Shown one piece after another: positions 12,035-61,190 of a DNA stretch of 64,000 nucleotides. Every line of letters starts with the position of its first letter. Within the stretch, counting starts at the first letter, position 1. This stretch comes from Thermoplasmata archaeon. Lineage in GTDB: Archaea; Thermoplasmatota; Thermoplasmata; RBG-16-68-12; JAGMCJ01. The stretch spans positions 1,914 through 65,913 of the forward strand of contig JBHIFI010000002.1 in assembly GCA_046761005.1 (NCBI GenBank). The letters are read 5' to 3'. Under the pieces are notes generated by a model. The model saw nothing but the letters and a program-made list of their open reading frames with translations, made no database searches and was not told the DNA's origin. The translations under genes and the position numbers were made by a program.

Positions 12035-12102
12035 CAGAAATCAAACTGCCAACAACTATTCAAAACTTCTTGCAGAAAAGGCTTTGAGACGAAATTACCC
12101 TA

Positions 12103-12987
12103 TCATCCTAGCTGGGAGGAGAAGCCGGGCTTGATTCCGAATAGGTACCTCAGATAGCACAGTCTCTTCAGGTTGTGGCAGCAGGCCCTTGTGAAGGCCT
12201 CCGTGCGTCTTCTCCATCTCAATCTCCGACGAAGGGGGAGAGGGAAATCCCTCTTGAAGATGGAATACCCGCTTTCTGCAATGGATCGGGAGTGATACTC
12301 CCTCAACCATTCCTGAGTGTCACGAATGAAGGAATGAAGCATGTGAATCCACGCATCGCTCCCTTTCCTCTTGAGGGTTATTCCCCTCTTAGGGAAGAGC
12401 CTGGGAGCGGCTCCCAAATCCTCTATGGCAGTGCAGTTCTCTCTTGATAGGAATCCCGCATCCCCGCTGACGACCTCTAGGAAAGAATATCCCTTCGAGT
12501 CCTCCATCATGGAGGGAAGCATTGGAGACTCGTTCCCATCTGGGTTCTCCATCACATGAAAGGAGGAGAAGAGCTTGTATCTCCTTCCTATGGCCGTGAC
12601 TATCTTCTCATACCTTTTAGTCTTCTTTCCTCCCTTCTTGTCCGACTCGTAGTTCCTCTCCATGGACCTCGAGAGTCCTGTGCCGTCAACTGCAATCTCT
12701 TTCTCCACATCTCTGACTGCATCCTGAGTAAGGGAGAAGAGCATATCCAGGAGTTTCCTCACATCGTGATTCTCATACGCTCTTTCGACCGTCTTGTAGG
12801 AGAACACCCTCGATAGGTCAAGCTTCTCCTTGAAGAGAAGGAGGAGGCCCTCCGCCTTCCTGTTGGGCACACCGGAGCCCAAGCAGAGAAAACGAAGCTT
12901 TTCGTAGAGGCCACACGGTGCCAGCTTCCGGCATATACTAATATCCTCTTCTACGTCTGAAAGCCTCCTCAACGAGAACCTGATCAT
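12103..12987 (-). CDS. DDE transposase, IS4/IS5-superfamily-like (DDE_Tnp_1 type)
   Basis: Candidate DDE triad: AVDGTGLS (D1), SGDAGFLSREN (D2), and the C-terminal block YHSRSIAESGYSIFKRDFPLPLRRRLRWRRRTEAFTRACCHNLKRL, which matches the Y..R..IE..F..K ... R-rich ... YNL.R signature of IS5-like transposases. The annotated ATG 12987 overlaps the relE 3' end in another frame; the true start may be the internal TTG/GTG. Confidence 0.7.
   Translation of the reverse strand: MIRFSLRRLSDVEEDISICRKLAPCGLYEKLRFLCLGSGVPNRKAEGLLLLFKEKLDLSRVFSYKTVERAYENHDVRKLLDMLFSLTQDAVRDVEKEIAVDGTGLSRSMERNYESDKKGGKKTKRYEKIVTAIGRRYKLFSSFHVMENPDGNESPMLPSMMEDSKGYSFLEVVSGDAGFLSRENCTAIEDLGAAPRLFPKRGITLKRKGSDAWIHMLHSFIRDTQEWLREYHSRSIAESGYSIFKRDFPLPLRRRLRWRRRTEAFTRACCHNLKRLCYLRYLFGIKPGFSSQLG
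12103..12987 (-). mobile_element. Insertion sequence (transposase ORF span; terminal inverted repeats not identified, ends undetermined)
   Basis: Single DDE transposase ORF. I could not locate terminal IRs or a TSD by eye in 12035-12102 or 12988-13060. Confidence 0.45.
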
Positions 12988-13198
12988 CCTTTATTACGTA
13001 TAGGAATCTGTTATTCCCCAGACGGAGCCGATAGAACGGTTTCTTACCTCTCATCTTCTTGATATCACATCCAGACCGGGTTTTGTATGGGTCATCTGAC
13101 AGTCTTTTCAAACTCTCATAGCATCTTTTTCTCTCACCCTTAGGAAGGGAATCCAGATATTTTTCAACATCTGGATGAAGAAAAACAGAATAACTCAT
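12938..13198 (-). CDS. relE: RelE/ParE-family toxin (type II toxin-antitoxin mRNA interferase)
   Basis: 86 aa. ...KKPFYRLRLGNNRFLYVIKDDQVLVEEAFRRRRGY matches the archaeal RelE fold signature (YR.R.GdyR.iY.v..d..v.il.i..RgraY). It overlaps the upstream RHH gene by 4 nt. Confidence 0.7.
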   Translation of the reverse strand: MSYSVFLHPDVEKYLDSLPKGERKRCYESLKRLSDDPYKTRSGCDIKKMRGKKPFYRLRLGNNRFLYVIKDDQVLVEEAFRRRRGY

Positions 13199-13422
13199 TC
13201 CAAACCTCTAGATCTACCGTATTCTTCAAGAGAGATGTGCTTATCTCTATCCCTCTCCGCCTTTTCGTGCAAGTAGGAAGAAAAATCATCGAATTTCTCA
13301 CGTAATAGTTCTCGAATAAATTCCCCCTTAGAGGTATATTCTCCCCTTTCCACAAGTTCTTCTAGCTCCTCGTATTGAGTTTCCGTCACTCTAACGTTCA
13401 ATGTTCTTGTTTTCGCCGTCAC
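13195..13422 (-). CDS. Ribbon-helix-helix (CopG/ParD-like) antitoxin
   Basis: The translation from the internal GTG (VTAKTRTLNVRVTETQYEELEELVERGEYTSKGEFIRELLREKF...) is a typical RHH antitoxin N-terminus. The ORF-track start is 13452; I prefer GTG at 13422. Confidence 0.6.
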   Translation of the reverse strand: MTAKTRTLNVRVTETQYEELEELVERGEYTSKGEFIRELLREKFDDFSSYLHEKAERDRDKHISLEEYGRSRGLE

Positions 13423-13573
13423 GTGTACCACTGTGTTGCTAATGTAACACACGATTCATATAACTTTCGGTTAGCCAACCATTTACCGCCTACCAAGAAA
13501 ACGAGGGAGGTACGGCTAGGATTTCACTTAACGTTCTATGGGTATCAACTGCGTTGAATGATTCTTGATAGTC

Positions 13574-19947: not shown

Positions 19948-20705
19948 CTCAGAACCTCCAATACCCTCTTATCTCCTACGGCCATGAAGTTTGATCTTTC
20001 GGTAATGTCGAACTTCATCTCAAGTTCCTTGCCCTCCATATCCAGAACTTCCCCGCCAGCTTCTCTTACGATAAGTGTGCCTGCGGCGATATCGATGATT
20101 CTTAACATTGCCTCGCACTCCACATAGTATAGATCGGCCTGACCGCTGGCGACCATGCACATTTCGAGAGAGGCAGCACCATAGGAACGCGCTCGTCTAG
20201 CCCTAGAGGCAATTTCAAACGAGCGTGGACTTGCTAGTTTCCCCATGTAAACGATGAATAGCGATTTTTCTGGGTCGAAAACAGCAGTTCTTATTCTCCC
20301 GCCATTTTGGAAGGCACCTTTGCCCTTTTCAGCATAGCATACGTCACCGTTGGAGAGACTCTTGACCAGTCCGTATCTAACATTCGAGAGACAGCTCTCG
20401 CCAATTGCCATGGAAATCGCGTAGAAAGGCGTCCCCAACAAGGCATTGAACGTCCCGTCTACAGGATCTAGGACGAGCGTCAGATCCGATCCATTGTCGA
20501 TGAAATCTGCCTCTTCGCTCAATATGTTCAGGGGGACATCCTCCCGTTCGACCTTGTTGATGATAACGCTCTCAGCAATCTCATCAATTTTTGATGTCGG
20601 TGTACCGTCTGCACCAAGACCCACTTCTTCTGAGAAATTCTTTCGCAAGGATGAGTTGAGTGTCTTGTAGACTTCCTCAGCTGCCTCGAATAGGAACTTC
20701 TTCAC
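19944..20705 (-). CDS. suhB: Inositol monophosphatase / fructose-1,6-bisphosphatase family protein (archaeal IMPase/FBPase/NADP phosphatase-like)
   Basis: Metal-binding motifs ...DPVDGT (LVLDPVDGTFNA) and ...WD.AAG-like C-terminal block (IIDIAAGTLIVREAGG). It overlaps nadK by 4 nt. Confidence 0.8.
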   Translation of the reverse strand: MKKFLFEAAEEVYKTLNSSLRKNFSEEVGLGADGTPTSKIDEIAESVIINKVEREDVPLNILSEEADFIDNGSDLTLVLDPVDGTFNALLGTPFYAISMAIGESCLSNVRYGLVKSLSNGDVCYAEKGKGAFQNGGRIRTAVFDPEKSLFIVYMGKLASPRSFEIASRARRARSYGAASLEMCMVASGQADLYYVECEAMLRIIDIAAGTLIVREAGGEVLDMEGKELEMKFDITERSNFMAVGDKRVLEVLR

Positions 20706-20963
20706 ATTCTCAGTAATCGACTCCGTCCTTAAAGTTTTATTTAGTCCTGCAGTCGAGGTGCAACCTCAAGGGGCGAATCCTTTGCATATTGGTGATATGG
20801 ACTGTGTTTGTGGAAGCCATTCAGTAGCGGGCGTTCTTGCCGGGTGTACGGTGATGTAGAATGGATAGTCGATCCTGTCCCTTTGCCCCTTCTCCTAGAA
20901 ACTTTGACATGGTGCTGGCTTTGCTAGCTAACAAGGTCCAAAAGGTATCTCTTTGGCCACTTA

Positions 20964-21159
20964 GACCAACGATTCTACATCACCCGGGTGTACGGCCATG
21001 TAGAAAAAGAAGTGTAGAGACAGAAGTCGATTATTATAAGAGATTTCGAAATATAAAACTGAAAGAGTAGCAAGAAATCCGAGAATTCGGCGATTTTGAG
21101 ACAATACACCGACTTTTCTACACCGCCCGGGTGTACTTTCAGTAGGTTTATATAGAAGA
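20964..21159. repeat. MITE-like element copy A. It has a 20-nt conserved flank (20964-20983), the 11-nt CGGGTGTACGG, a 133-nt core (20995-21127) 100% identical to 55595-55727, the CGGGTGTAC direct repeat, and then TATA TTTATATAGAAGA (21147-21159)
   Basis: I aligned the two loci by hand and found the core identical over 133 nt. Core ends are GTAGAAAAAG ... CTTTTCTAC (an imperfect TIR). In this locus the core is flanked by a perfect 9-bp direct repeat (20984-20992 and 21128-21136). Confidence 0.8.
21147..21159 (+). promoter_or_regulatory. TATA box TTTATATAGAAGA for the thermosome gene (string)
   Basis: Consensus archaeal TATA about 46 nt upstream of ATG 21205, with a GGAGGTGA Shine-Dalgarno at 21191-21198. 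The same 13-mer precedes gene 55791. Confidence 0.6.
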
Positions 21160-21204: not shown

Positions 21205-22836
21205 ATGATGACAGGAACGACACCTGTATTGGTGTTGAAGGAAGGAACGAGAAGAGAAAGGGGAAAAGGAGCGAAGGTAAACAACATCGCCGCTGCCAAG
21301 GCCGTCGCTGATGCAGTTCGTTCAAGCCTCGGACCACGAGGAATGGACAAGATGCTGGTGGATAGCATGGGAGATGTTGTCATCACCAATGATGGTGTGA
21401 CAATACTGAAAGAGATAGACATAGAGCATCCGGCGGCGAAGATGGTTGTGGAAGTAGCAAAGACGCAAGATGAAGAAGTCGGAGACGGAACAACCACCGC
21501 AGTAATTCTTGCAGGCGAGCTGCTGAAGAAATCAGAAGACCTGATAGAGCAGAACGTTCACCCAACAATAATAGCTGGCGGATACAGGATGGCTGCTGAC
21601 AAGTCGGTCGAGATACTGACAAAGATTGCGAAGAGGGTCAACATAAGAGATAAGAAGCTGCTGAGGGAGATAGCGGCTACGGCGATGATAAGTAAGGCCG
21701 TTGGATCGCACAGGGACCTTCTGGCCGACATCGCGGTTGAAGCAGTCACTACGGTTGCTGAAAAAGCCGAAGACGGAAGGCATGTAATTGATGAGGACAA
21801 TATCCAGGTTGTGAAGAAGCAGGGAGCGGGCATTGCCGACACCGAGCTGATTCCAGGAATAATCGTGGACAAGGAGAGAGTACATCCTGGCATGCCAAAG
21901 AATGTGAAGAAGGCAAAGATTGCACTAGTCGATTCCGCCATGGAAGTCAAGAAAACGGAGATAGACGCAAAGATTGAGATTACAGACCCGACGCAACTTC
22001 AGGCATTCCTAAAGGAAGAAGAAAGGATGCTGAAGGACATGGTGGACAGGGTCAATAAGTCAGGGGCAAACGTCCTCTTCTGCCAGAAGGGCATTGACGA
22101 TTTGGCACAGCACTATCTAGCTAAAGAGGGAGTCTATGCAGTTCGCAGGGTCAAGAAGTCAGACATGGAGAAATTGGCCAAGGCGACCGGAGCGACGATA
22201 ATCTCGAAGATCGACGAGCTGAGAAAGGTAGACCTGGGATCAGCGAGTGAGGTCTATGAGAAGAAGATAGGCGACGATGAGATGACATTCGTCACCGGGT
22301 GCAAGAACCCAAAGGCCGTGTCTGTACTTCTCAGAGGCGGAACAGAACACGTCGTCGATGAACTGGAGAGATCCTTTGAGGACGCCGTATGCGTCTCGAG
22401 TGTTACAATCGAGGACGGAAAGATGATAACTGGCGGAGGTTCCGCGGCAACGGAAATCGCGCTTGGACTCAGGGAATTTGCCGCTTCCGTTGGCGGAAGA
22501 GAACAGATAGCCATCGATGCTTTTGCTGATGCTATGGAGGTTATTCCAAGAACACTCGCAGAAAACGCAGGTATGGATCCGATAGATACCCTGATAAACC
22601 TCAGGAAAGAGCACAAGAAAGGAAAGAAGACAACCGGGGTAAATGTCTTTACTGGGAAGCTGTCGGATATGAGGAGAGGGAGCGTCCTTGAGCCAATACG
22701 CGTTGGGACGCAGGCAATCCAGTCAGCAACAGATGCCGCAGTAATGATTCTGAGAATCGATGATGTTATCGCATCGAAGGGAGTAGAACCAACGCCACCT
22801 GGTGAAGGACCCGGTGGAGAAGAGGAAGAGTTCTAG
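21205..22836 (+). CDS. ths: Thermosome subunit (group II chaperonin)
   Basis: [18 protein letters not shown] and GDGTTT motifs, and a GGGS...ATE-type C-terminal region. 543 aa. Confidence 0.92.
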
Positions 22837-55338: not shown

Positions 55339-55563
55339 CTTGGTCTCGATAGTGTCAGTCCTCTATAAATCTTCCCGGAGCGAGATCATCGATATCTCTA
55401 CTCAATTGGAGAACACGAGGTTTCAGGTTTGGTGTTGGTTCAGTAGCAGGTGGTGCAGAATGAATGGTTGATGCTGCTCATTTCAGAGTCCTCTCAAGAG
55501 ATCTAGCGTATTGCTGGCTTCGGTAGCTAATGAGGCTCGAAAGGTCTCTTCTTAGCCTCCCAA

Positions 55564-55758
55564 ACCATCGATTCTACATCACCTCAGTAGCAGGCCATGT
55601 AGAAAAAGAAGTGTAGAGACAGAAGTCGATTATTATAAGAGATTTCGAAATATAAAACTGAAAGAGTAGCAAGAAATCCGAGAATTCGGCGATTTTGAGA
55701 CAATACACCGACTTTTCTACACCGCCCCAGTTGCAGCGAATTATCTTTATATAGAAGA
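55564..55758. repeat. MITE-like element copy B. It has the conserved flank (55564-55583), the 11-nt TCAGTAGCAGG, the 133-nt core (55595-55727, identical to copy A), then CCAGTTGCAGCG and TATA TTTATATAGAAGA (55746-55758)
   Basis: Hand alignment with 20964-21159. In this locus the core is flanked by CAGTAGCAG / CAGTTGCAG (9 bp, 1 mismatch). Confidence 0.8.
55746..55758 (+). promoter_or_regulatory. TATA box TTTATATAGAAGA for the COG1395 regulator gene
   Basis: Identical 13-mer to 21147-21159. ATG 55791 lies 33 nt downstream of the TATA end, consistent with a leaderless transcript. Confidence 0.55.
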
Positions 55759-55790: not shown

Positions 55791-56718
55791 GATGATTGGT
55801 GAGGCTCGCGAGATTCTGGCGAAAACCGGATTCTATCTCTCACAAGAATTGGATACGAGGAGTATCAGCTTTGACTTCGTCGCTAGGCGAGACGATATGC
55901 TCTTGGTCGCGAAAGTGTTCCTGAACATAGACTCGCTGGGAAGGAAGTGCTCTCAGGAACTCAAGATTATAGCCTCCTGCTTGGAGGGAAGCCCACTCCT
56001 ATTGGGCAAGAGAAGCGGGTCGGGACAGCTCGAGGATGGTGCTATCTATTCTCGTTTTGGAATTCCAATCCTCTCCATAGGAACCCTCAGAGACTTCCTC
56101 GTCGAAGGTGTCCCCCCGTTCATGTTCTCCGCCCCTGGTGGTCTCTATGTGAAGCTTGATAGCTCTGTGATAAGAAAGGCCCGGGAAAAGAAGAACATAT
56201 CTCTGGGAACTCTCGCAGAAATGGCAGGCGTTTCTAGGCGAGCCATACAGATGTATGAGGATGGGATGGGAGCGACCATTGAGGTCGCTCTCAAACTCGA
56301 GGAATTCTTGAAAGAGCCCATAGTTCAAGCTGTCAATCCTTTCCGCATGATTCCGGATGCCGATCAGATACTGATGTCCTGGGACCAGCTCAACGCGTTC
56401 GAGAGGGACGTTTTCGAACATCTCTCCATGCTGGGGTATAGCATTATCCCAACCATCAGATGCCCATTCGATGCACTGACAAGGGATAAGAAGGTCATTC
56501 TATTGACGGGACTGGAAAGAAGGCAGGGAGACCTTTCGACGAAAGCAAAGGTAGTTGCAGACATATCCAGCGTTGTGGAAAAGGACTCCGTCATATTCGT
56601 TAGGCGTTTGACAATGAAACAAAATATCGAGGGAACACCAATTATCCGGAAAGAGGAACTCAAGAAGCTAAGAGACAGAGAGGAGATGCTGGATATGATT
56701 TCCGAGCGGAAGAAGTGA
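55791..56718 (+). CDS. HTH (XRE-type) domain transcriptional regulator, archaeal COG1395-like
   Basis: Central HTH ISLGTLAEMAGVSRRAIQMYEDG. Archaeal-specific N- and C-terminal domains. I prefer ATG 55791 over the ORF-track TTG 55768, which would sit only about 10 nt after the TATA. Confidence 0.65.
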
Positions 56719-61181: not shown

Positions 61182-61190
61182 TTTATATAA
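61182..61190 (-). promoter_or_regulatory. TATA box (TTATATAAAC on the minus strand) for the pilin-like giant gene
   Basis: Lies about 40-46 nt upstream of ATG 61144. Shine-Dalgarno GGAGGA is the reverse complement of 61151-61156. Confidence 0.5.

What the first reader, a model, noticed from the sequence alone, without database searches (positions are those of the whole stretch)
20964..21159. 133-bp perfectly duplicated element with TIR-like ends and flanking direct repeats (MITE-like), inserted 18-19 bp upstream of the TATA box of the thermosome gene (copy A) and of a COG1395 regulator (copy B, 55564-55758)
By hand alignment, 20995-21127 and 55595-55727 are 133/133 identical, in genes-poor divergent promoter regions about 34.5 kb apart. 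The core begins cCATGTAGAAAAAG and ends CTTTTCTACACCGCC, so the ends form an imperfect inverted repeat (GTAGAAAAG). In copy A the core is flanked by a perfect 9-bp direct repeat, CGGGTGTAC (20984-20992 and 21128-21136). In copy B it is flanked by CAGTAGCAG / CAGTTGCAG (1 mismatch). These look like target-site duplications that differ between loci, as expected for transposition rather than segmental duplication. A further 20-nt block, CCA(A/T)CGATTCTACATCACC, precedes each left flank and resembles the element's own right end (TTCTACAYCRCC). Copy A also has an inverted solo end plus CGGGTGTACGG at 20838-20864, which suggests repeated visits to the same site. 100% identity implies recent mobility. 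The parent autonomous element is not in this window, because the IS at 12103-12987 has different ends. Both copies sit directly upstream of the identical TATA 13-mer TTTATATAGAAGA, so the element may carry or modulate promoter activity for chaperone and regulator genes.
Basis: seen in the sequence. Interest (0 to 1): 0.75.

Follow-up and report, generated by a model that had tools for sequence, protein, structure and literature searches.

The report
Two stacked archaeal MITEs upstream of TATA boxes
The duplicated 133-bp block is a real, recently mobile miniature transposon in an uncultured Thermoplasmata archaeon, and at both promoters it sits directly behind a second, older miniature transposon in the same 9-bp target, which lies exactly 10 bp upstream of the gene's TATA box, suggesting that this transposon family uses the promoter to choose its landing site.

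Summary
Window 20994-21128 and 55593-55727 are identical over 135 nt, with inverted ends and locus-specific flanking repeats.

The anatomy is richer than reported. Each locus carries two about 135-bp non-coding elements in tandem:
- E1: 70% identical between the two loci.
- E2: 100% identical between the two loci.

Their ends are related (GGnnnTGTAGAA). They are separated and flanked by three copies of one locus-specific 9-mer.

Evidence for mobility:
- An independent metagenome contig shows the empty thermosome site with a single 9-mer.
- Relatives lack both elements at both orthologous promoters.
- Solo E1 copies with perfect, different 9-bp duplications occur in another Thermoplasmata MAG.

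So these are MITEs, an ordinary kind. The TATA 13-mer belongs to the host promoters, not to the element.

The unusual point is position. In six insertion events at four of five fully resolved E1 sites, the target ends 10 bp (once 11 bp) upstream of a strong TATA box. This explains why E2 re-used E1's exact target at both loci. It points to promoter-guided targeting, as known for bacterial TnGBS/ISLre2 elements but not, to my knowledge, for archaea. The sample is small. The parent transposase was not found.

The parts
20841..20849 (.). Locus A, copy 1 of the 9-bp target duplication CGGGTGTAC
   Evidence: A single copy is present in the empty allele L001.
20850..20984 (+). E1_A: 135-bp MITE. TIRs are GGTGATGTAGAAT...ATTCTACATCACC.
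   Evidence: (I23). It is 80% identical to the E1 copies in MAG JBHIFJ01 and 70% identical to E1_B. No Pfam hit for ORFs that overlap it.
20985..20993 (.). Locus A, copy 2 of CGGGTGTAC. It is shared between E1 and E2.
20994..21127 (+). E2_A: 134-bp MITE (135 bp if the terminal C at 21128 belongs to it). TIRs are GGCCATGTAGAAAA / GGCGGTGTAGAAAA.
   Evidence: It is 100% identical to E2_B.
21128..21136 (.). Locus A, copy 3 of CGGGTGTAC
21147..21159 (+). Host thermosome promoter TATA region TTTATATAGAAGA. It starts 10 bp after the target 9-mer. The thermosome ATG is at 21205.
   Evidence: It is conserved in relatives that lack the elements (L004, L006, L007).
55440..55448 (.). Locus B, copy 1 of the 9-bp target duplication TCAGTAGCA
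55449..55583 (+). E1_B: 135-bp MITE. The left TIR is GGTGGTGCAGAAT (2 mismatches). The right TIR is ATTCTACATCACC.
55584..55592 (.). Locus B, copy 2 of TCAGTAGCA
55593..55726 (+). E2_B: identical to E2_A
   Evidence: The right junction is reproduced in L008-L010.
55727..55735 (.). Locus B, copy 3 of the target, CCAGTTGCA (7/9). It reads CCAGTAGCA in the population variant L008.
55746..55758 (+). Host promoter TATA region TTTATATAGAAGA of the PDDEXK_19+HTH_3 (COG1395-type) regulator gene. It starts 10 bp after the target 9-mer. The ATG is at 55792.
   Evidence: It is conserved in relatives that lack the elements (L060-L062). Pfam result.
21051..21058 (-). TATA-like octamer inside E2 (TTTTATAT on the minus strand). 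The same octamer lies at 55650-55657.
   Evidence: It is one of only 8 strict TATA matches in 115 kb. Function is untested.

Best explanation

Shown:
- E1 (135 bp) and E2 (134-135 bp) have no coding capacity.
- Their terminal inverted repeats are related (GGnnnTGTAGAA, then RGT at positions 18-20).
- They are bracketed by locus-specific 9-bp target-site duplications.
- They are absent from an allele in the same population and from the orthologous promoters of related species.
- E1 occurs as solo copies with other 9-bp duplications in another Thermoplasmata genome.

Inferred:
- Both are mobilised in trans by a DDE transposase that binds these ends and makes 9-bp staggered target cuts. That transposase is encoded by an autonomous insertion sequence elsewhere in the genome, which was not found.
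- The end signature GGnnnTG plus a 9-bp duplication fits the IS1 family best. A Mutator-like (IS256/ISLre2/ISKra4) parent or an archaeal IS6-like parent is not excluded.
- Target choice is positional. The promoter-proximal cut falls 10 bp upstream of a strong TATA box, just beyond the BRE. This is presumably because the transposase senses the TATA sequence or DNA bound and bent by TBP/TFB.
- After E1 inserted, the promoter-proximal copy of the 9-mer still lay 10 bp from the TATA box. The next element to arrive (E2, identical at both loci and therefore recent) cut the same 9-mer and created the third repeat copy. This stacks the elements with the youngest nearest the promoter.
- The core promoters stay intact. 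Everything upstream of them is displaced by 288 bp.
For: Identity and ends:
- 135-nt identity between the loci, and the TIRs.
- E1 is a complete element at both loci, with three copies of the 9-mer.

Absence elsewhere:
- Logan contig L001 reads window 20820-20849 joined directly to 21137 onward, with one CGGGTGTAC. This is an empty allele. The start points of L001 and L003 fit a branch between filled and empty alleles.
- Orthologous thermosome promoters (L004-L007) and regulator promoters (L060-L062) lack both elements but keep the TATA region.

Other E1 copies:
- In MAG JBHIFJ01, solo E1 copies have perfect, different 9-bp duplications: AGCCCTCTT (L013), CGCTGGTTG (L021) and CTGGCTGGA (L017 + L020, two sides of one insertion). 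Those copies are 99-100% identical to each other.
- Further copies lie at contig ends, and one lies in MAG JBHIBK01.

Coding and RNA:
- No Pfam domain in ORFs that overlap the elements.
- No Rfam family.

Position relative to the TATA box:
- The TATA box starts 10 bp after the target at A, B and L017, and 11 bp after it at L013. It always points away from the element and toward a plausible gene start.
- The strict TATA octamer occurs only 8 times in 115 kb. Four are these sites and two lie inside E2.
- P(at least 4 of 5 complete sites) is about 1e-5 to 1e-7 even if insertions are confined to intergenic regions. The motif and the offset were defined after seeing the data.
- E2 lies on the TATA side of E1 at both loci.

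Literature:
- GGnnnTG ends are reported for IS1 and IS6/IS26 (PMC6807381).
- Mutator-like prokaryotic elements make 8-9-bp duplications, and some insert at a fixed distance upstream of promoters (PMC3942029).
Against: - No autonomous element with these ends was found in the window, in 70 fetched loci or in the collection scans. The transposase family and trans-mobilisation are inferred only.
- Only two E2 copies are known.
- The TATA rule rests on five fully resolved E1 sites plus two E2 events. One complete site (L021) has no clear TATA box at 10 bp, and one half-site (L016) has it at 19 bp.
- No allele with E1 alone was seen at locus A. The order of events is inferred from copy identity.
- At locus B the third repeat copy is imperfect: 7/9 in the window, and 8/9 (or 8/8 in the 8-bp register) in L008.
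Confidence: 0.72

Rival explanations
1. End-targeting (homing to a resident element). E2's transposase recognises the terminal repeat of a resident E1, which resembles E2's own ends. It uses the E1/flank junction as the target and so cuts the same 9 bp again. On this reading the TATA box is irrelevant to E2.
For: Both known E2 copies abut the right end of an E1, in the same relative orientation, separated by exactly the 9-mer. The E1 and E2 ends share GGnnnTGTAGAA. Targeting of resident inverted repeats is known for IS30, and insertion next to a resident copy is known for IS26 (own knowledge; the targeted conservative reaction of IS26 is mentioned in PMC6807381).
Against: - It does not explain why solo E1 copies in another genome also sit 10-11 bp from TATA boxes, nor why E1 itself chose that position at A and B.
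- E2 lies on the TATA side both times.
- Positional targeting alone already predicts the stacking.
Confidence: 0.17
2. These are ordinary MITEs with no positional targeting. Insertions are near-random, and selection keeps only those that leave genes and core promoters intact. The repeated 10-bp spacing and the re-use of the same 9-mer are coincidence, or reflect a weak local sequence preference.
For: MITEs are mostly intergenic: 88.9% in archaea (PMC11602168). The sample is small and the motif and offset were defined after looking. L021 and L016 do not fit the rule.
Against: Selection would give a spread of distances, not 10, 10, 10 and 11 bp, nor two further insertions into the identical 9-mer. 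The probability is about 1e-5 or below under an intergenic-only null. The target 9-mers and the 10-bp spacers share no sequence.
Confidence: 0.08
3. A conserved regulatory module or a segmental duplication / gene conversion shared by two co-regulated promoters, or an assembly artefact, rather than a mobile element.
For: Both loci share the order E1-E2-TATA and an identical 13-mer TATA region. The 8-mer TTCAGTAG recurs at both promoters.
Against: - Relatives keep the TATA region at both promoters but lack E1 and E2.
- The repeats between and around the elements are locus-specific. Copying from one locus to the other would have carried them along.
- E1_A and E1_B are only 70% identical, while E2 is 100% identical.
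- An empty allele exists.
- The junctions are reproduced in independent assemblies.
Confidence: 0.02

Closest known systems
Prokaryotic MITEs (for example Sulfolobus SM1-SM4, haloarchaeal MITEs, MITEAba12 of Acinetobacter)
   Same: Size of about 100-300 bp, no coding capacity, terminal inverted repeats, fixed-length locus-specific target duplications, intergenic location, several copies and presence/absence polymorphism. MITEs were found in 20% of 8,220 archaeal genomes (PMC11602168).
   Different: No sequence match to anything annotated: plasmids and phages and Rfam. No paper in the held library combines MITEs with Thermoplasmata. Two distinct family members are stacked in one re-used target, at a fixed distance from a TATA box. 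The parent IS is unknown.
TnGBS / ISLre2 / ISKra4 elements with Mutator-like DDE transposases (PMC3942029)
   Same: They make 8-9-bp duplications and their terminal residues are G...C. They insert at a fixed distance upstream of a core promoter element: 15-17 bp upstream of the -35 box, or 13-17 bp from the IR junction. The ISKra4 group, whose IRs are nearly perfect, inserts in both orientations, as E1 does.
   Different: Those elements are bacterial, autonomous (ISs or ICEs) and read sigma-A promoters. Here the elements are non-autonomous and archaeal, and the reference point is the TATA box (19 bp from the element end, 10 bp from the duplicated 9-mer). No Mutator-like transposase was found, so homology is untested. 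That paper notes for archaea only that ISH6 prefers an AT-rich duplicated motif.
IS1 family (ends GGnnnTG, 8-9-bp duplication)
   Same: The ends GGTGATG, GGCCATG and GGCGGTG fit GGnnnTG (this signature is cited for IS1 and IS6/IS26 in PMC6807381). E1 made a 9-bp duplication at all five complete sites.
   Different: No IS1-type transposase or autonomous copy was identified. The same end signature occurs in IS6/IS26-like elements, which mostly make 8-bp duplications.
Yeast Ty3 (integration at Pol III start sites through TFIIIB)
   Same: Works alike only in concept. The integration position is set by a TBP- and TFIIB-like initiation complex, and the gene stays intact (the analogy is drawn for TnGBS in PMC3942029).
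   Different: Ty3 is an LTR retrotransposon with an integrase. It is not related. Any interaction with archaeal TBP/TFB is speculation here.
IS30 inverted-repeat targeting and IS26 insertion next to a resident copy
   Same: A new copy lands directly beside the end of a resident related element.
   Different: IS30 junctions have a 2-bp spacer, and the IS26 targeted reaction makes no new duplication (own knowledge). Here the spacer is the full 9-bp target, and a new duplication is made.

Membership tests
MITE (non-autonomous IS derivative) | Small size and no coding capacity | tested here: met
   135 and 134 bp. The ORFs that overlap them have no Pfam hit. No Rfam family matches.
MITE (non-autonomous IS derivative) | Terminal inverted repeats | tested here: met
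   E1: 13/13 terminal bases, about 17/20 overall. E2: 12/14. The end motif occurs only at the 8 element ends in the window, against 0.9 expected by chance.
MITE (non-autonomous IS derivative) | Target-site duplication of fixed length that differs between loci | tested here: met
   E1 has perfect 9-bp duplications at five sites: CGGGTGTAC, TCAGTAGCA, AGCCCTCTT, CGCTGGTTG and CTGGCTGGA. E2 has 9/9 at A. At B it has 7/9 in the window and 8/9 in L008.
MITE (non-autonomous IS derivative) | Several copies at unrelated loci | tested here: met
   E1: 2 copies in the window, at least 5 insertions in MAG JBHIFJ01 and 1 in JBHIBK01. E2: only 2 copies are known.
MITE (non-autonomous IS derivative) | Empty sites / presence-absence polymorphism | tested here: met
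   Empty allele L001 with a single 9-mer. Orthologous promoters in relatives lack the elements.
MITE (non-autonomous IS derivative) | A cognate autonomous IS with matching ends that supplies the transposase | tested here: inconclusive
   None was found in the window, in the fetched loci or in the collection scans. The full genomes of the host MAGs could not be searched.
IS1-family derivative | Ends GGnnnTG and an 8-9-bp duplication | tested here: met
   Ends are GGTGATG, GGCCATG and GGCGGTG, with 9-bp duplications. The signature is as cited in PMC6807381. It is not unique to IS1.
IS1-family derivative | Mobilised by an IS1-type (InsAB') transposase | not testable with these tools
   No candidate transposase is available.
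Archaeal IS6-like derivative | GG ends with G at position 7, and an 8-bp duplication | tested here: not met
   The ends fit, but E1 duplicates 9 bp at 5 of 5 sites. In Table 5 of PMC6807381 most archaeal members duplicate 8 bp and two duplicate 9 bp. E2 could be read in an 8-bp register.
Promoter-targeting Mutator-like elements (TnGBS/ISLre2/ISKra4) | Insertion at a fixed distance upstream of a core promoter element | tested here: met
   The TATA box starts 10-11 bp after the target at 4 of 5 complete E1 sites, and at both E2 events. The promoter type is archaeal rather than sigma-A. The sample is small.
Promoter-targeting Mutator-like elements (TnGBS/ISLre2/ISKra4) | Mutator-like DDE transposase with the targeting signature motif | not testable with these tools
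   No transposase was found.
Conserved promoter/regulatory module | Conservation at the orthologous promoters of related genomes | tested here: not met
   E1 and E2 are absent from L004-L007 and L060-L062. Only the TATA region is conserved.

The most novel reading that the evidence does not exclude
This would be the first archaeal transposon family whose integration site is set by the core promoter. The transposase would place its 9-bp staggered cut one helical turn upstream of the TATA box, by reading TBP/TFB-bent DNA or the initiation factors themselves. Successive family members would then pile up in tandem upstream of strong promoters, including those of the thermosome and of a widespread regulator. 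That would be an archaeal counterpart of bacterial TnGBS/ISLre2 and of yeast Ty3.
Probability: 0.5. Interest if true: 0.7.

Novelty: new variant of a known kind. Interest (0 to 1): 0.5.

Why it matters
On its own this is one more archaeal MITE family, which is routine.

If the positional rule holds, three things follow:
- It gives a natural reporter of where the archaeal pre-initiation complex sits.
- It gives a 'safe-haven' integration strategy in archaea that parallels sigma-A-promoter targeting in bacteria and Pol III targeting in yeast.
- It gives a mechanism that repeatedly remodels the region upstream of strong promoters (here a chaperonin gene and a transcription-regulator gene) within a natural population in which filled and empty alleles coexist.

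It also gives a concrete handle, the ends GGnnnTGTAGAA, for finding the responsible transposase.

Tried and rejected
**RNA gene.** No Rfam family matched, at gathering thresholds or at E up to 10. Single-strand folds are unremarkable apart from the TIR stem: z = -1.4 for E2 and -2.6 for E1.

**More E2 copies.** An exact 24-mer in 185,579 species genomes gave 0 hits. A degenerate pattern covering both ends gave 0 hits in JGI metagenomes and 0 in viral contigs.

**More E1 copies.** The metagenome and viral scans gave only chance hits, with no partner repeat and no extension. A low-stringency blastn of E1 and E2 against the window and all Thermoplasmata loci found no relic copies. Plasmid and phage collections gave no match.

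**Parent IS.**
- The IS5-like ORF at 12103-12987 scores below the NCBIfam cut-off. Its imperfect repeats are TTCTTGCAGAAAAGG..., not GGnnnTGTAGAA, so it was rejected as the parent.
- A relaxed search for TIR pairs up to 3.5 kb apart in all loci found only the MITEs and two chance pairs without duplications.

**Other strong-TATA promoters in the window (31670, 61182).** Logan contigs show no insertion polymorphism at the first, and an uninformative contig break at the second.

**Failed look-ups.** The regulator with a TTG start and the inositol monophosphatase with a GTG start were not on record. The NCBI contig itself could not be retrieved, so the 4.4 kb of the source contig outside the window was not seen.

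**Transposition of E1+E2 as one composite unit, or gene conversion between the loci.** Rejected, because the internal 9-mer matches the local target at each locus.

**IS family tables.** The 2014 Siguier review and the 2007 Filee review are not held. Parts of the family comparison therefore rest on my own knowledge.

Full report
**Observation**

Reading and aligning the two regions confirms the duplicated block. Window 20994-21128 equals 55593-55727 over 135 nt without a mismatch. It is the only long repeat in the 64-kb window.

The block has imperfect inverted ends: GGCCATGTAGAAAA on the left, and GGCGGTGTAGAAAA as the reverse complement of the right end. At locus A it is flanked by CGGGTGTAC on both sides. 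At locus B it is flanked by TCAGTAGCA on the left and CCAGTTGCA on the right.

**Full anatomy**

Similarity between the loci continues about 145 bp to the left at lower identity.
- E1_A is 20850-20984.
- E1_B is 55449-55583.
- Both are 135 bp, with ends GGTGATGTAGAAT...ATTCTACATCACC.
- E1_A and E1_B are 70% identical to each other.

Each locus therefore reads: 9-mer | E1 | same 9-mer | E2 | same 9-mer. The 9-mer is locus-specific:
- A: CGGGTGTAC at 20841-49, 20985-93 and 21128-36.
- B: TCAGTAGCA at 55440-48 and 55584-92, then CCAGTTGCA at 55727-35.

E1 and E2 differ internally (about 56% identity, which is background level). They share the terminal signature GGnnnTGTAGAA and nearly the same length. 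The motif GGYSRTGTAGAAW, with up to one mismatch, occurs eight times in the window. All eight are the ends of these four elements, against 0.9 expected by chance.

**Host and gene context**

- The thermosome protein is 100% identical to one from an NCBI 'Thermoplasmata archaeon' MAG.
- Locus A lies between an inositol-monophosphatase gene (minus strand) and a thermosome-GrpE-DnaK-DnaJ cluster.
- Locus B lies between the tRNA-splicing endonuclease gene (minus strand) and a PDDEXK_19+HTH_3 regulator gene whose ATG is at 55792.

**Evidence for mobility**

1. *Empty allele.* Logan contig L001 (run SRR29324583) encodes the identical thermosome. Upstream it reads TTCAGTAGCGGGCGTTCTTGCCGGGTGTAC|TTTCAGTAGGTTTATATAGAAGA. 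This is window 20820-20849 joined directly to 21137, with one copy of the 9-mer and neither element. L001 starts 30 nt left of that junction. L003 starts at the first base shared by the filled and empty alleles. This is what a k=31 assembly graph gives when both alleles are present, so the insertion is polymorphic in the population.
2. *Independent junctions.* Assemblies of other runs reproduce the E2-right junctions at A (L002) and B (L008-L010). This rules out an assembly artefact. L008 has CAGTAGCA where the window has CAGTTGCA, so one of the two mismatches in the third repeat at B is a recent point mutation.
3. *Orthologous promoters.* In relatives with 87-90% identical thermosome proteins (L004-L007) and 81-86% identical regulator proteins (L060-L062), the intergenic regions are about 160-175 bp and lack E1 and E2. 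They keep TAGGTTTATATAGAAGAACAAACATAG at the thermosome promoter and ATCTTTATATAGAAGAGT at the regulator promoter. The TATA 13-mer is therefore host promoter sequence, not part of the element.
4. *Solo copies elsewhere.* A scan of 185,579 species genomes with the E1 end found E1 in two other Thermoplasmata MAGs.
   - JBHIFJ01 carries complete solo copies flanked by perfect, different 9-bp duplications: AGCCCTCTT (L013) and CGCTGGTTG (L021).
   - It also carries four copies cut by contig ends. L017 and L020 are the two sides of a single insertion with duplication CTGGCTGGA.
   - The copies in that MAG are 99-100% identical to each other.
5. *No coding or RNA signal.* ORFs that overlap the elements have no Pfam hit, and no Rfam family matches.

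Together these meet the usual criteria for MITEs. Archaeal MITEs are common (PMC11602168).

**The unexpected regularity**

With the elements removed, the target 9-mer ends exactly 10 bp upstream of TTTATATA at both window loci (21136 to 21147; 55735 to 55746). The same holds in the other MAG:
- L017/L020: 10 bp to TTTTTATAG, followed by a 1,726-aa ORF.
- L013: 11 bp to TTTTATAT on the other strand, followed by a small ORF.

In every case the TATA box points away from the element. One complete site (L021) has no clear TATA box at that offset. One half-site (L016) has it at 19 bp. Two half-sites (L011, L031) show none on the single visible flank.

The strict octamer (TTTWTATA or TTTTATAT) occurs only eight times on both strands of 115 kb. 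Four are these sites, two lie inside E2, and two are other window promoters. The probability that at least four of five complete sites show it at offset 10-11 is about 1e-13 under a genome-wide null. It is 1e-5 to 1e-7 if insertions are confined to short intergenic regions. The motif and offset were chosen after seeing the data, so these values are indicative only. The 9-mers and the 10-bp spacers share no sequence, so the TATA box is the only common feature.

**Mechanism proposed**

The elements are mobilised in trans by a DDE transposase that binds the GGnnnTGTAGAA ends and makes 9-bp staggered cuts. The promoter-proximal cut is placed 10 bp upstream of a strong TATA box, just beyond the BRE. 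This could work by recognising the TATA sequence or by recognising DNA bent and occupied by TBP/TFB.

This rule explains the three-repeat structure at both loci. After E1 inserted, the proximal copy of the 9-mer still lay 10 bp from the TATA box. The next arrival, E2, therefore cut the same 9-mer again. The model predicts that the youngest element lies nearest the promoter. E2, identical at both loci, does.

If E2 is taken as 135 bp including C21128, its duplications are 8 bp (GGGTGTAC; CAGTAGCA) and are perfect in L008. The promoter-proximal cut is the same in either register.

The steps that are shown are mobility, the duplications, the empty site and the positional regularity. The steps that are inferred are the transposase, how the TATA box is read and the order of insertion.

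**Rivals**

- *Homing of E2 to the end of a resident E1.* This also predicts the shared 9-mer. It does not explain why solo E1 copies sit at TATA-10, nor why E2 is on the promoter side both times.
- *Random insertion plus selection.* This would give a spread of distances, not a single offset.
- *A conserved regulatory module, gene conversion between the loci, transposition of E1+E2 as one unit, or an assembly artefact.* All are contradicted by the locus-specific internal 9-mer, the 70% versus 100% identities, the empty allele, the relatives and the independent assemblies.

**Comparison with known systems**

- *Element type.* The elements are members of the MITE class.
- *Parent family.* The parent family is undetermined.
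  - GGnnnTG ends are reported for IS1 and IS6/IS26 (PMC6807381).
  - The 9-bp duplication fits IS1 better than the mostly 8-bp archaeal IS6-like elements.
  - Mutator-like prokaryotic transposons also make 8-9-bp duplications.
- *Closest functional precedent.* In the TnGBS, ISLre2 and ISKra4 groups, elements insert 15-17 bp upstream of the -35 box of sigma-A promoters, and those with near-perfect repeats insert in both orientations (PMC3942029). I found no report of such fixed-offset promoter targeting in archaea, and no report of MITEs in Thermoplasmata, in the held literature.

**What was not achieved**

- No autonomous partner was found.
- No further E2 copy was found.
- The rest of the host genomes could not be searched.
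- The IS5-like relic at 12067-12978 has different ends and is not the parent.

**Verdict**

The observation and the MITE interpretation are sound, and on their own ordinary. The tandem stacking in a re-used target and the constant 10-bp distance to the TATA box are real in these data. They suggest promoter-guided integration in an archaeon. This is moderately interesting, and a junction census in the existing read sets would test it.

Noticed in passing
window 12067-12978 and 12938-13452: An IS5-family-like transposase relic: ORF 12103-12987 on the minus strand, Pfam DDE_Tnp_1 at 4.8e-9, NCBIfam IS5_2 at 64 bits against a cut-off of 140. Its imperfect inverted repeats are at 12067-12091 and 12954-12978. 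Its 5' end overlaps a pair of small minus-strand ORFs (86 and 85 aa) arranged like a toxin-antitoxin pair.
   Followed up: partly
window 21051-21058 and 55650-55657 (inside E2): E2 contains a strict TATA-like octamer: TTTTATAT on the minus strand, or ATATAAAA on the plus strand preceded by CGAA. It is one of only 8 such matches in 115 kb. It could be an element-borne promoter firing toward the divergent gene or toward the downstream gene. The direction and any activity are unknown.
   Followed up: no
window 21138-21159, 55439-55446, 55746-55758, 20820-20827: The thermosome and PDDEXK_19+HTH_3 regulator promoters share the exact 13-mer TTTATATAGAAGA, which is conserved in relatives of both genes. 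The 8-mer TTCAGTAG occurs 5 times in the window against 1.7 expected, and three of those are at these two promoters. This may be a common operator or regulon signature.
   Followed up: partly
window 20703-20726 (minus strand): In relatives the inositol-monophosphatase gene starts ATGGAGCCGATTACTCAG. In the window that ATG is ACG, so the ORF now begins at GTG 20705, seven codons shorter.
   Followed up: no
L017:1-64 and L020:1-63 (MAG JBHIFJ01 contigs 000005 and 000003): The two contig starts are the two sides of one E1 insertion: duplication CTGGCTGGA and its reverse complement TCCAGCCAG. These contigs are therefore adjacent in that genome.
   Followed up: yes
window 55732; L008:32 region: The third repeat copy at locus B is polymorphic in the population: CAGTAGCAG in run SRR29324585, against CAGTTGCAG in the window, L009 and L010.
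   Followed up: yes
L061 (SRR29324587) against L010 (same run): The same sample series holds a second, related Thermoplasmata population. Its regulator protein is 84% identical, and its orthologous promoter is empty.
   Followed up: partly
window 61196 (start of Logan contig L070): A 9.3-kb Logan contig ends 7 bp downstream of the strong TATA box at 61182-61189. The position does not fit the TATA-10 rule, and the cause of the break was not determined.
   Followed up: no
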